Source: Mytilus edulis | Lineage: Eukaryota | Assembly: GCF_963676685.1 (NCBI RefSeq) | Contig: NC_092351.1 | Span: 34,534,001 to 34,598,000, forward strand | Direction of reading: 5' to 3' | Length of the DNA stretch: 64,000 nucleotides | Shown: positions 21,301 through 28,663 of the stretch, in pieces | Layout of the letters: every line of letters begins with the position of its first letter | How positions within the stretch are numbered: position 1 is the stretch's first letter | The notes under the pieces: generated by a model | Database searches by the model: none | What the model saw: the letters and a program-made list of their open reading frames with translations, nothing else | Told to the model about the DNA's origin: nothing | Position numbers and translations under genes: made by a program

Positions 21301-24300
21301 CCAGTTGACAGACTTTTCAGTTTTTCAAGATTGAACTTTTTTGATGATCAGCATGCACTGTTCTAGTTGACTGACTTTTCCTATACAACAAATTAAGTTT
21401 CACAATTAAGCAACACTAAAGACCCATGTGCACAGTGCTGCCAAATATGTTCCTTGTACACTTCACCTTACATATGAATTCCTAGATATGTATGTTCTAA
21501 ATTTTGTGTGCTTTCTGACTTGAAGAAATATATATATTTGCTGACCATGCAAAGAGGGTGGTAAAGGGGGATGCTTGCGAGAAAAAAAACGTGAAATAAG
21601 ACATAATTTCACGTTGAACGTGAAATAATTTCTGTAATGAATATTGCATGAAAAATAAATACTTTTATGTGAACCTTTTGTGACGGAGTCACTGTCTTCT
21701 TGTATATATTGACTCTTTGTTTTACTTGATATTCCCGATTTAGTATACACATTTATGATATAATTGGTTTACGGCTTTTAAAAAAGTATTTCTTGGCGAT
21801 CCCTGCCAAGTGTTTGAATTTAATTTGAAAAATACCGGGCACGCAAAATAAGACTTTGAAAATCACGATGCACATAAAATTAAATAAGCAGAACACGTTG
21901 AACGAGGCACCCGTCTTGCACGACTGAACGTCAAATAAAAAAGTAAAACACGTTGAACGTGAAATAAAAAACGGCTATCGTGTTGCACGAAAATAACCCT
22001 TTACCACCCTCTGCAAAGGACAGGGCTCTTACAAATAAAGTTCTTTTGATAATTGGCTCCATAACATATTTAAGCATTAAAAATATATGTAGGACTCGGA
22101 GGTGCGATGGTACTCCGAACCGCGATGGTCACGCTGAAGTGCGATGGTCCACGCTGAAGTGCGATGGTTAACACGCCGAAGTGCGATGGTCACATTGTGA
22201 CGTTAACTTGTTGATAGCTACGCTGAAGTGCGATGGTGGTTACTCTGAAGTGCAATGGTCCACGCTGAAGTGCGATGGTTAACACGCCGAAGTGCGATGG
22301 TCACATTGTGACGTTAACTTGTTCATAGCTACGCTGAAGTGCGATGGTTGTTATGCTGAAGTGCAATGGTGGTTAACTCTAAAGTGCGATAGTCACATTT
22401 TGAAGATAAATTATACGCTGAAGAATGCCTGTAACAATGATTAAAAAGCTAAATATATTTTTATATAAATACACAACTGTAGGGTTTTCCGTTTAAATGG
22501 TTTAACACTAGTTATTGCTGTTTTATGTGAACCTAGGCTCTGTGTTGAAGGCCGTATTATAACTTGAAATGGTTTACTTTTACAAATTGCAGCTTGGATG
22601 GACAGTTTTGTCATTCGCACTCATACCACATCTTCTTATATTTATGAACTTCTTCAATAAAATAAAGATTTTAGCAATGTGGCTATCGGTAGGTAGAAAA
22701 AAATAAAACAATTTCAATTTAAAAATGCATAGATTCATACAATATGCAATGAATGAATATTTAATACAGCAAATTAGGACGAATTAAGTATTTTGATAAA
22801 CAGTGGATTTTATTGTTCTCAAGGTCTTTAACTGTGTACACTCTCCCTTTAGAATCATCCATCTGAATGTCCATTACTATCCCCTTCCTCCAATACCCTG
22901 ACAGAAATACATTTGTTCCTGCGCTAAGTGCTGAATTTGGTCTAAAATCTATTGTGTCATTAATATTTGGATTAAATGTTTGCATTTCCATCACTTGGGA
23001 CTTCCTAGGAAACAACTCAACAGGATACAAATCCCTATCCCATGCTTCTCTGTTCTGTTAAAAATAGTAACGGTACATGTACTAGTTCATATCTTTTTTG
23101 TACTTATTAATTGCTATTAAAAATGTACATTTGTATTTAATTTATTATGCTATATTTGAAATAAAATTTAAAAAAAAAATGAACATATTAAACAAACAAA
23201 TGGCTCAAGTCTATCCATATTTGATGTGAGACAAGGCTCCGTTTTGAAGGCCGTACATTGACCTATAATGGTTTACTTTTATAAATTGTTATTTGGATGT
23301 AGAGTTGTCTCATTGGCACTCACACCACATCTTCCTATATCTATATACATAATTCATTCTAATCTGTTCGTTTATAATTTATGTAATGTTTGCATTTTGT
23401 GTGAAAACAGTATTATGTATGCTTCAACTGAATAGCTACTCTGTATGTATAGTACACTATGTGAAACTCATCTTATGTGTTTGCCTTATTTAACAGACTT
23501 AAAATAATACTTTATTTTATAAAATTACCTCAGTGCAAATATTGGAATCAGAATATCTCCGTTTGTTTGAATTGGTCTGTATTGTATTGGCTAAAAATCT
23601 TTTAGCATATATTTCCCGGTAATACGGGCTTACGTCATTCTGAAAAATATTAAAAATTAATTACTAATACATATATATTATTGCACTATAAATTTCATTG
23701 TTTCGTATTCTACTAAGTGTAATGTTGAATTAAAAAAAAAGTTTGAACTTTAAAACAATGTCTATAAATAAAGCCACATTTATTTAATTCAAATTTTAAT
23801 AAATTTTTCCCATTTAGATACTGTTACAAAGATGTGCAAGTAAAAAATAGGTATTCAAGTACCTGCATCATATCAGTGTTGCGAATTATCTGTGAGTTTG
23901 TAATGTCAGTTAAAGGTGTTCCATGCATCATATCAGTGTTGCGAACCATCTGTGAGTTTGTAATGTCAGTTAAAGGTGTTCCATGCATCATATCAGTGTT
24001 GCGAACCATCTGTGAGTTTGTAGTGTCAGTTAAAGGTGTTCTATGCGTCATATCAGTGTTGCGAACCATCTGTGAGTTTGTAATGTCAGTCAAAGGTGTT
24101 CCATGCGTCATATCAGTGTTGAGAACCATCTGTGAGTTTGTAATGTCAGTCAAAGGTGTTCCATGCGTCATATCAGTGTTGCGAACCATCTGTGAGTTTG
24201 TAATGTCAGTCAAAGGTGTTCCATGCGTCATATCAGTGTTTCGAACCATCTGTGAGTTTGTAGTGTCAGTTAAAGGTGTTCTATGTGTCATATCAGTGTT

Positions 24301-27300: not shown

Positions 27301-28663
27301 ATATTGCATATGTAGTTGTAACCATGTGACGGAGGCATCTTCTTGAGGTCCATTTGCCATCTACTGTTGGGATAGGTTGCTGGAATTGGCCTTCTTGTTC
27401 TTTGAGTTTTAGGTAAATCAACTGCCGAAAGACACTGTTGGCATTTAATGTTCAGCTTAAACAGTAAACGAATGTTTTCCCGAACTACTGGGAAAAAAGA
27501 CTTCCTCAGAGTTTCGTACACCGTATCACTTTTTCTATGATCAGTTTTGTGATTTTTTTGTATTTCTTCCAAAAGTTCACCTTTTGACAAGACCTTTCTG
27601 TGGAATTCAGTAACAGTCGTGCTCCTGTAAAATATACTGTCCAAGTCTTTGTCGTATAAAAAATTTGACACATATTTTCTTATACTAGTTTCTCCCATCT
27701 GAAGACCTAGGGCATCCTTTATTCTTTTCGCTCCCCATGATTTGTTGGTATATTTTGCCTTGCATATTGAAAAAACCTCATCCTGCACTGCCCAAAACTG
27801 TTCCGGACTTGGATCGTTTGTAACCTTTTTTTTACGTTCGTTTGTTATAACAAAGCCTTCGTCAACAAAATCTTCTTTTCCATCCTGCAATTCCATACCA
27901 TTTTCTTTAAGAAACGTTGTATTTCAAAACGTCATAATATTTAACGTCATGGTAACTTGTTTTAAAACGCGCGAATATATAAGTTACATTAACGCAAACT
28001 TTTGTATTATTTAAGGAATAGCTATATTTTAGCATTTACAATTATCTACGAAAATTTTAATTATTGTTTTAATTAATGCATTTATGCATTTTTGCTTTCT
28101 AAATTTTATTTATCATGCTTCTTATTATAATAACATATAATGGTCCAACATGACCATCGCACTTCAGCGAATGAACCATCACACTTCAGCGTGGACCATC
28201 GCACTTCAGCGTCCCATCGCATCTCCGAGTTCTATATCTATATAAACCATCGCACTTCGGCGTGAACCATCGCACTTCAGCGTGACCATCGCACTTCCGC
28301 GTCCCCATCGCACCTCCGAGTCCTACATATATGTCAGGTAAAAAATCTGTGGATGGTGTGGTCACCTGATAAGTGCTTTTAAATATTCCCTATGTTCATT
28401 TTTCTTAAAAACTTTTATTGAAATAGAATACACTTTATGTGAATTTTATTCACACAGGAGAGAAGTAAGAAAGGTATTTTTGTGTAAATTTATTCAAGTT
28501 TTAAATCTATTTCTATTGTTTTTAGGAAGAAAGACAGAAATCATACAAAAAAGAAAAGAAGGCAGACAGAAAAAGAAAAGCAGAAGGAGAATTGAACTTA
28601 AACATTGATCCTGACATGGCTGCTGTTATGGGATTCTCAGGGTTTGGGGGGTCATCAAAATGA
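18309..28663 (+). CDS. ZMAT2: Zinc finger matrin-type protein 2 (Snu23 homologue, spliceosome)
   Basis: Exons 18309-18464, 19353-19423, 20547-20620, 21077-21222, 28526-28663(TGA), phases compatible. Translation includes [58 protein letters not shown] and [11 protein letters not shown]. The start-codon exon is upstream and unresolved; one candidate is ATGGCAGAG|gt at about 16453-16461. Confidence 0.95.
19490..19720 (+). mobile_element. Degenerate tRNA-derived SINE (V-domain-like)
   Basis: tRNA-like head, then a GGTGATTTTTCTCTGCATACTTCAGCCTCCTCGACCAATAAAAACTGAC core. Related copies at about 8890-9000 (+), 520-720 (-) and 62575-63045 (+), with (CAAT)n tails. Confidence 0.55.
21554..22011. mobile_element. 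MITE with GAGGG..CCCTC ends and a 6-bp TSD
   Basis: TGCAAA|GAGGGTGGTAAAGGG ... CCCTTTACCACCCTC|TGCAAA; internal CACGTTGAACGTG repeats. Confidence 0.82.
22761..27896 (-). CDS. Ginger-type DDE transposase/integrase (HHCC zinc finger, rve core, 20-aa repeat array, C-terminal SH3/Tudor-like barrel)
   Basis: Exons 27896-27080, 26705-26512, 25984-25859, (25813-25712 uncertain), 24876-24700, 24495-23863, 23639-23529, 23054-22761(TAA). GT-AG, in phase, no stops; 783 aa, or 817 aa with the uncertain exon. Motifs: H..H..CQQC; SRWQMDL (D); LQTDNG (D); [16 protein letters not shown] (E). Confidence 0.85.
23863..24460 (-). repeat. Coding 60-bp minisatellite, about 10 copies, in the transposase exon
   Basis: Near-identical 60-nt lines at 23881-24460; unit translates as (R/G)TPLTD(I/T)[11 protein letters not shown](M/T)H. 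Confidence 0.97.

What the first reader, a model, noticed from the sequence alone, without database searches (positions are those of the whole stretch)
22088..28327. Apparently intact multi-intron Ginger DNA transposon antisense inside a ZMAT2 intron
Seen: perfect 23-bp TIRs, a TATA TSD, and 7-8 phase-compatible exons without stops, with the DDE triad and HHCC finger intact. The catalytic E lies just after an intron. Known: Ginger elements have Gypsy-like integrases, TGT..ACA ends, 4-bp TSDs and introns. Inference: this is a recent and possibly active insertion in a conserved spliceosomal gene, and may be polymorphic.
Basis: partly seen in the sequence, partly recalled or inferred. Interest (0 to 1): 0.7.

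Follow-up and report, generated by a model that had tools for sequence, protein, structure and literature searches.

The report
Young intact Ginger2 transposon in mussel
This is an intact copy of a young cut-and-paste jumping gene of a known kind (likely Ginger2), sitting backwards in an intron of a mussel splicing gene and likely absent from some individuals; its one unusual trait is a recently multiplied repeat that resembles, but is not shown to be, a cell-cycle destruction tag.

Summary
A 6,240-bp element has perfect 23-bp TIRs (TGTAG...CTACA) and a TATA duplication. It carries a stop-free 7-exon, 783-aa integrase-like ORF (HHCC; D183, D240, E276) antisense in the last intron of ZMAT2. Five other copies are 96-97% alike, 3 of the 6 have open frames, pN/pS is 0.29, and short non-autonomous partners share the TIR. 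It is a mobile family, not a domesticated gene or an LTR element. Ends, 4-bp TSD, RTATAY target and lack of GPY/F fit Ginger2/Tdd; no named Ginger2 was in my tree. One RNA contig splices exons 2-3-4. One DNA contig has the right flank without the element end, so the site is likely polymorphic. Current activity is not shown. New lead: exon 5 is a 60-bp in-frame minisatellite (1 unit in an older copy, 6-18 in young ones) multiplying a conserved PLxD[IV]TNS motif that matches 5 of 6 D-box positions (shuffle p 0.01-0.02). Three look-ups found no earlier scan note on this family.

The parts
22084..22087 (.). Left target-site duplication TATA
22088..22110 (+). Perfect 23-bp TIR at the transposase 3' end (TGTAG start)
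22088..22400 (+). Subterminal array, 12 matches (up to 4 mismatches) to a 16-bp core spaced about 19-22 bp; likely transposase binding sites (inferred)
22521..22645 (.). Fragment of a very high-copy genomic repeat in the 3' untranslated part
   Evidence: D9; contig depth over 70,000
22761..23054 (-). Exon 7: C-terminal five-stranded SH3/Tudor-like barrel (predicted) and stop
   Evidence: RNA contig ends at 23054 (record 23)
23220..23345 (.). High-copy repeat fragment in intron 6
23529..23639 (-). Exon 6: conserved SPYY helix and basic KRR patch
23863..24495 (-). Exon 5: 60-bp in-frame minisatellite, 10 units of 20 aa, each with a D-box-like [R/G/E]TPLTD[I/T]xNS motif (3 units with R)
24700..24876 (-). 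Exon 4 (linker)
   Evidence: RNA contig, record 1
25240..25565 (.). High-copy repeat fragments nested in intron 3
   Evidence: contig depth up to 516,000; loose ends at 25242-25564
25712..25813 (-). Relic of an ancestral exon, not part of the working ORF
   Evidence: broken in 4 of 6 copies, related coding sequence in an older copy; skipped in RNA
25859..25984 (-). Exon 3 (end of core, acidic linker)
26512..26705 (-). Exon 2, holds catalytic E276 (26697-26695)
27080..27896 (-). Exon 1: N-terminal extension domain, HHCC finger, D183 and D240
28146..28327 (-). Subterminal array at the 5' end (8 core matches)
28305..28327 (-). Perfect 23-bp TIR at the transposase 5' end
28328..28331 (.). Right target-site duplication TATA
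21077..21222 (+). ZMAT2 exon before the host intron (earlier exons about 18309-18464, 19353-19423, 20547-20620)
28526..28663 (+). ZMAT2 last coding exon
   Evidence: a 692-nt RNA contig of depth 34.4 covers 21077-21223 and 28524-28760

Best explanation
This is an intact copy of a young multi-copy DNA transposon family, likely of the Ginger2/Tdd group, whose spliced 783-aa integrase-like enzyme would cut the element out at its TGT...ACA ends and paste it into AT-rich RTATAY sites, leaving a 4-bp duplication. Shown: TIRs, TSD, open 7-exon frame, HHCC and D-D35-E, five sister copies, short partners with the same ends, purifying selection, and splicing of exons 2-3-4 in one RNA contig. Predicted: an N-terminal extension plus zinc-finger module like foamy-virus and Ty3 integrases, and a C-terminal SH3/Tudor-like barrel, most simply the integrase C-terminal domain set off by a linker of about 300 aa. 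Inferred: the N-terminal helical domain binds the subterminal repeats; the short elements of mostly 1.2-1.5 kb are moved in trans; this copy landed antisense in the last ZMAT2 intron, lengthening it from about 1.06 to 7.3 kb, and is likely tolerated because its splice and poly(A) signals lie on the other strand; the insertion likely segregates.
For: Anatomy. Copies: five at 96-99% in exon 1 and 96-97% over the element. Window, C13 and C12a keep an open frame with all splice sites (3 of 6). 27 synonymous vs 31 non-synonymous changes, pN/pS 0.29; shared changes 8 vs 1. TIR 23-mer: 112 matches vs 0 control. Of 30 TIR loci examined, 16 had the partner end within 1.5 kb and 13 of these 16 had a 4-bp TSD. 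TATA precedes 16 of 30, against a background of 1%. Ginger2 definition: PMC2836005. Tree: the element's 15-row clade has 100/100 support and lies outside the 6-row group holding the RT-bearing proteins (97/95). Members of one clade cluster are named KRBA2-like and SCAND3-like by NCBI, and these genes derive from Ginger2 (PMC3575427). Folds: foamy-virus integrase Z 6.7, Ty3 Z 5.4; Tudor-like Z 8.8, rmsd 1.7, 57 aligned. Splicing: record 1; record 23. Intron positions are shared with a sister family that is 72% identical in exon 1.
Against: No named Ginger2 sequence was in the tree, because the reference alignment files could not be read. The perfect TIR (23 bp) is shorter than the published 45-297 bp. 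The intron-1 junction, which brings in the catalytic E, appeared in none of the rows shown, and the one spliced contig begins inside intron 1. Raw RNA reads of X24 give depth of about 1 or less on exon 1 against 69 on ZMAT2 (6% of the run read). The window copy has four private amino-acid changes, among them E244A at a position that is E in 9 of 9 aligned relatives, though an older copy also has A there. No identical copies were found. The 90 loose letters of the X4 contig were not printed, so the empty site is inferred, not read.
Confidence: 0.9

Rival explanations
1. Same element, with added cell-cycle control: the exon-5 units are APC/C D-box degrons, so the transposase would be destroyed at mitotic exit and in G1 and act in S/G2, when repair from the sister chromatid turns a cut-and-paste jump into a copy gain. 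The young family multiplied the degron from 1 to 6-18 copies.
For: Consensus RxxLx[D/E][hydrophobic]xN[N/S], with Pro common at P3 and a CDK site at P2 (PMC5717348 passages). The units read [20 protein letters not shown] and similar. PLxD[IV]TNS is kept in the sister mussel family and in an oyster family, where the window-oyster local alignment of the linker begins at this motif. Best match is 5 of 6 positions, reached by 122, 95 and 47 of 5000 shuffles. An older copy has one unit.
Against: The three motifs are homologous, so they count as one event, and the motif was noticed before it was tested. P1 is not Arg in the sister, oyster or older copies (S, T, A). Many amplified units lose P6 Asp (to His) or P7 Ile, and C14b has 18 units with none carrying Arg. 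The motif is absent in P0004, P0005, P0008, P0010 and P0011. The conserved block runs on into a SPYY helix, so it may be structural.
Confidence: 0.15
2. The window copy is a dead or crippled insertion of a family whose activity has ended; the open frame survives only because little time has passed.
For: Private changes E5D, E244A, Q433R and Y684C. No identical copy pair. Three of six copies are broken. RNA signal is low.
Against: All catalytic and zinc ligands, six intron pairs and both TIRs are intact. Private coding divergence (7 of 1655) is lower than non-coding (36 of 3537), as expected if the lineage was under selection until lately. Spliced RNA exists in another Mytilus-like run.
Confidence: 0.3
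3. A solo integrase of an LTR retrotransposon or a Polinton fragment, or a domesticated host gene.
For: Sequence likeness to retroviral integrases; introns and purifying selection as in host genes.
Against: TIRs and TSD enclose only this ORF, with no RT or gag frame inside the element. The TSD is 4 bp. There are six dispersed copies with different flanks, and the tree separates it from RT-bearing proteins.
Confidence: 0.02

Closest known systems
Ginger2/Tdd DNA transposons (Bao, Kapitonov and Jurka 2010, PMC2836005; parts 1-2 of 5 and passages read), e.g. Ginger2-1_LS of the snail Littorina (6,081 bp), Ginger2-1_BF (6,110 bp), Ginger2-1_HM (6,676 bp, 45-bp TIR)
   Same: TGTNR ends, 4-bp TSD, RTATAY target, HHCC plus DDE, no GPY/F or YPYY, size about 6.2 kb, non-autonomous partners.
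   Different: Perfect TIR only 23 bp, continued by tandem subterminal repeats. Six introns (eight in the sister family); the paper gives intron counts for Ginger1 only (0-4). Long linker with an expanding D-box-like minisatellite and a C-terminal SH3/Tudor-like barrel, not described in the parts read.
Ginger1 DNA transposons (PMC2836005)
   Same: Gypsy-like integrase, TGT ends, 4-bp TSD, introns.
   Different: Ginger1 targets CCGG/CCGT and carries GPY/F, YPYY and OTU or Ulp1 domains; none of these is seen here.
KRBA2 and SCAND3 (PMC3575427, passages read)
   Same: Ginger2-derived integrase core; NCBI names clade relatives after them.
   Different: Those are domesticated mammalian genes; this is a TIR-flanked multi-copy element.
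Foamy-virus and Ty3 integrases (PDB 4bac, 7q5b)
   Same: Predicted N-terminal extension plus HHCC module (Z 6.7 and 5.4); DDE core.
   Different: Those act on reverse-transcribed cDNA; here the enzyme is encoded by a spliced gene between TIRs.

Membership tests
Ginger2/Tdd | Termini TGTNR | tested here: met
   TGTAG at both ends
Ginger2/Tdd | 4-bp TSD | tested here: met
   TATA here, in C13 and in C12b; CGTA in the sister element; imperfect in C12a; 13 of 16 short elements
Ginger2/Tdd | AT-rich target RTATAY | tested here: met
   Site is ATATAT; TATA at 16 of 30 loci, purine before the TSD at 28 of 30
Ginger2/Tdd | H2C2 finger and DDE core | tested here: met
Ginger2/Tdd | Lacks GPY/F and YPYY motifs | tested here: met
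   No [WFY]xGP[YF] in any of the 15 clade rows; no YPYY-like motif seen by eye upstream of the finger. A degenerate WxxGxV lies in the C-terminal barrel.
Ginger2/Tdd | TIR about 50-180 bp | tested here: inconclusive
   23 bp perfect; imperfect inverted arms of 61-67 nt at 87-90% built from subterminal repeats
Ginger2/Tdd | Groups with named Ginger2 transposases in a tree | tested here: inconclusive
   No named references available; indirect support from KRBA2-like and SCAND3-like labels in the clade
Ginger2/Tdd | Cut-and-paste activity | not testable with these tools
   Needs an excision or integration assay
Ginger1 | CCGG/CCGT target | tested here: not met
   0 of 30
Ginger1 | GPY/F motif and OTU or Ulp1 C-terminal domain | tested here: not met
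   Pfam on P0001 gives only rve families; no GPY
Gypsy/LTR retrotransposon | LTRs, gag, RT/RNase H around the integrase | tested here: not met
   Inverted, not direct, terminal repeats; no such ORF in the element
Polinton/Maverick | 6-bp TSD, 15-20 kb, polB and ATPase genes (recalled) | tested here: not met
   4-bp TSD, 6.2 kb, one gene
GingerRoot (PMC6839031, passages read) | 6-bp TSD, no HHCC | tested here: not met
   4-bp TSD, HHCC present
APC/C D-box degron | RxxLx[D/E][hydrophobic]xN[N/S] | tested here: inconclusive
   5 of 6 positions per unit; none of the 10 window units has all six, one unit of C12a does
APC/C D-box degron | Binds Cdh1/Cdc20 and causes degradation | not tested
Tudor methyl-lysine/arginine reader | Tudor fold with an aromatic cage | tested here: inconclusive
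   Fold Z 8.8, tied with PWWP and chromo-barrel rows; Foldseek best E 0.012; Atlas leads include integrase C-terminal families at 0.76-0.77; cage not examined

The most novel reading that the evidence does not exclude
A bivalve Ginger2 lineage carries an APC/C destruction box in its transposase linker, and this young family has multiplied it 6-18-fold by an in-frame minisatellite. That would make a tunable degron array which confines cut-and-paste transposition to S/G2 and so turns jumps into copy gains.
Probability: 0.15. Interest if true: 0.65.

Novelty: new member of a known kind. Interest (0 to 1): 0.35.

Why it matters
As it stands, this is a clean and likely autonomous example of a little-studied superfamily: a bivalve survey counted 98 Ginger ORFs among 14,275 DDE elements (PMC10294476 passage). 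With three open-frame copies and short partners it is a ready substrate for a test of Ginger2 transposition, which bears on how integrase-like DNA transposons relate to LTR elements. The ZMAT2 insertion is probably ordinary intronic presence/absence variation. If the repeat is a working D-box array, it would be a host-cycle timer built into a transposase, which my two searches did not turn up in print (listings only).

Tried and rejected
Eighth exon 25813-25712: rejected. The Pfam TrmO_N hit on exon 5 (E 1.9e-07, zero stretches passing) is a repeat artefact. A captured Tudor reader is not preferred over the integrase's own SH3-like C-terminal domain: the fold rows are tied and no Pfam hit was found; integrase C-terminal domains were not among the 50 VIA rows, which does not exclude them. 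The catalytic core was poorly modelled (pLDDT under 50 from residue 161), so only residues 21-160 of that model were used. Rfam found nothing in 18000-31000. The second lay did not list the left-junction piece of the X4 contig; high-copy repeats crowded the tables. X12 and X10 contigs leave the window at 21521-21547 with 80-299 unlaid letters, which fits alleles without the neighbouring MITE but does not read the Ginger site. Exon 5 was not covered by either lay apart from its first 16 bases, so junctions 4-5 and 5-6 are untested. Runs with small shares (X17-X23) were not used. The tree used 81 of 171 proteins (those covering at least 170 core positions). The original Tdd-4 paper was not held. 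The .FAS supplements of PMC2836005 could not be read; they bear on the membership claim. Repbase and Dfam could not be searched, so the family may already be catalogued. Earlier scan notes: none on this family.
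Full report
Observation. The element spans 22088-28327 (6,240 bp). Its ends are identical over 23 bp (TGTAG...CTACA) and flanked by TATA. Behind each TIR lies a tandem array of a 16-bp core, 12 matches at the left and 8 at the right. Seven minus-strand exons with GT-AG introns of 374, 527, 982, 204, 223 and 474 bp give a 783-aa frame, 736 of 763 identical to database protein P0001. P0001 is labelled Mytilus edulis by its source and shares its exon-5 units with the C13 copy. HHCC (116, 120, 152, 155), D183, D240 and E276 are present, and E276 lies just past intron 1. The host is ZMAT2, single-copy. A 692-nt RNA contig of depth 34.4 appears on 21077-21223 in one lay and on 28524-28760 in the other, which confirms the host intron; whether that animal carries the insertion is unknown.

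Family. Exon 1 finds five further copies at 97-99% and older relatives at 69-93%. Over the element the five are about 96-97% alike, on four different flanks with TIRs or truncated 5' ends. Substitution divergence among the six is 0.5-2.0% in coding exons and 1.9-3.4% in introns. Window, C13 and C12a have open frames and all splice sites; C12b, C14a and C14b are broken. Outside exon 5 there are 27 synonymous and 31 non-synonymous changes (pN/pS 0.29), and among shared changes 8 against 1. The TIR 23-mer occurs 112 times, control 0. In 16 of 30 loci examined the partner end lay within 1.5 kb, mostly at 1.2-1.5 kb, and 13 of these 16 had a 4-bp TSD. TATA preceded 16 of 30 against 1% background. 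A sister family on C1 is full length (6,312 bp, CGTA duplication) with nine exons and shares four intron positions. Related C-termini occur in other Mytilus species and in an oyster at 59-66%.

Exon count. The extra exon 25813-25712 is deleted in C13, has a stop in C12a and is frameshifted in C14a and C14b. An older copy keeps related coding sequence, and the RNA contig skips it. The working gene has seven exons.

Expression and polymorphism. In RNA run X15 a 736-nt contig joins 26816-26509, 25981-25858 and 24875-24699, matching exons 2, 3 and 4 within a few bases but starting 111 nt inside intron 1. Another contig covers 22612-23054 and stops at the exon-7 acceptor, with equal depth on exon 6. 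These come from another copy or allele. Raw reads of X24 show ZMAT2 at depth 69 and transposase exon 1 at about 1 or less. No read or contig across intron 1 was among the rows shown. The unique stretch left of the element is 72 bp and is preceded by a MITE, so 90 letters fits an empty allele, but the letters were not printed. I rate polymorphism as likely, on one contig.

Age and activity. The window copy has 7 of 1655 coding and 36 of 3537 non-coding private differences, four of them amino-acid changes including E244A. An older copy also has A244, and retroviral integrases carry small residues there. The family is young, but no identical pair shows a current burst.

Protein anatomy. Residues 21-160 fold confidently and match best the N-terminal extension plus zinc domain of foamy-virus (Z 6.7, rmsd 3.1, 82 aligned) and Ty3 (Z 5.4) integrases. 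Exon 7 folds as a five-stranded barrel (pLDDT 73) like Tudor, PWWP and chromo-barrel domains (best Z 8.8, rmsd 1.7, 57 aligned, several tied; Foldseek best E 0.012). The Atlas gives only leads under 0.9, among them integrase C-terminal families. The simplest reading (inference) is the integrase's own SH3-like C-terminal domain with a degenerate GPY/F strand; a chromatin-reading role is not excluded.

Mechanism. By established knowledge of DDE integrases, the enzyme would bind both ends, free the 3'-CA ends and join them to an RTATAY target with a 4-bp stagger. Binding of the subterminal arrays by the N-terminal domain, and movement of the short elements in trans, are inferred. The insertion lies 866 bp after the ZMAT2 donor and about 200 bp before the acceptor, on the opposite strand; tolerance is inferred and no effect was measured.

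Classification. PMC2836005 (parts 1-2 of 5 and passages) defines Ginger2 by TGTNR ends, 4-bp TSD, RTATAY target, H2C2 plus DDE and no GPY/F or YPYY. These are met; TIR length is inconclusive. In an 81-row tree (81 of 171 proteins) the element's 15-row clade has 100/100 support and is apart from the group with RT-bearing polyproteins. NCBI names members of one clade cluster KRBA2-like and SCAND3-like, which PMC3575427 (passages) derives from Ginger2. Named references were not available. Ginger1, GingerRoot (PMC6839031 passages), LTR, Polinton and domestication each fail a defining feature.

The unusual part. Exon 5 is a 60-bp minisatellite with 10 units here and 9, about 11, 6, about 10 and 18 in the other copies, always in frame; an older copy has one unit. 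Each unit holds [R/G/E]TPLTD[I/T]xNS. The D-box consensus is RxxLx[D/E][hydrophobic]xN[N/S], with Pro common at P3 (PMC5717348 passages). PLxD[IV]TNS is kept in the sister family and in the oyster family, and 5 of 6 positions are reached by 47-122 of 5000 shuffles. Against this: it is one ancestral event, found post hoc; Arg at P1 is not ancestral; many units decay; five more distant relatives lack it; and the block continues into a conserved helix. Two paper searches (listings only) showed no transposase with such a degron. I give the functional-degron reading 15%.

Verdict. It is a new member of a known kind, interest 0.35. No earlier scan note covers this family.

Noticed in passing
window 21553-22012: A MITE of about 460 bp with 16-bp TIRs (AGAGGGTGGTAAAGGG) and a GCAA or TGCAAA direct repeat lies 72 bp from the Ginger end in the same ZMAT2 intron. 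It is high-copy, and contigs of X10 and X12 leave the window at its edge, so it is likely polymorphic too.
   Followed up: partly
window 26706-27079 (intron 1): The only spliced RNA contig starts inside intron 1, and no exon 1-2 junction was shown. Retention would end the protein before E276, possibly a repressor form (P-element analogy recalled). One contig only; may be pre-mRNA.
   Followed up: partly
window 25240-25565, 23220-23345, 22521-22645: Fragments of extremely abundant genomic repeats sit in introns 3 and 6 and in the 3' part, and travel with the family; not classified.
   Followed up: no
P0023, P0027: Oyster (Saccostrea-labelled) proteins are 59-66% identical in the C-terminal exon, about as close as the sister mussel family (69%). 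Horizontal transfer or slow evolution; untested.
   Followed up: no
L032 2079-2300: The C12a copy has an extra inverted piece of the element's 5' end beside its 3' TIR and an imperfect TSD, perhaps an aberrant transposition.
   Followed up: no
L042 367 and 1981: Two 5' TIRs in tandem on C11, each preceded by TATA.
   Followed up: no
window 43068-45029 and 50707-52305: Two non-LTR retrotransposon ORF fragments (RT plus RNase H; RT).
   Followed up: no
window 35684-39332, 47326-48324, 13883-14578: Host gene exons: an HMG-box protein (minus strand), a CFAP97/Hemingway-like protein (plus strand), and an unnamed acidic low-complexity exon upstream of ZMAT2.
   Followed up: no
window 29186-30583: Tandem 161-bp and 126-135-bp repeats just downstream of ZMAT2, likely another repeat element.
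   Followed up: no
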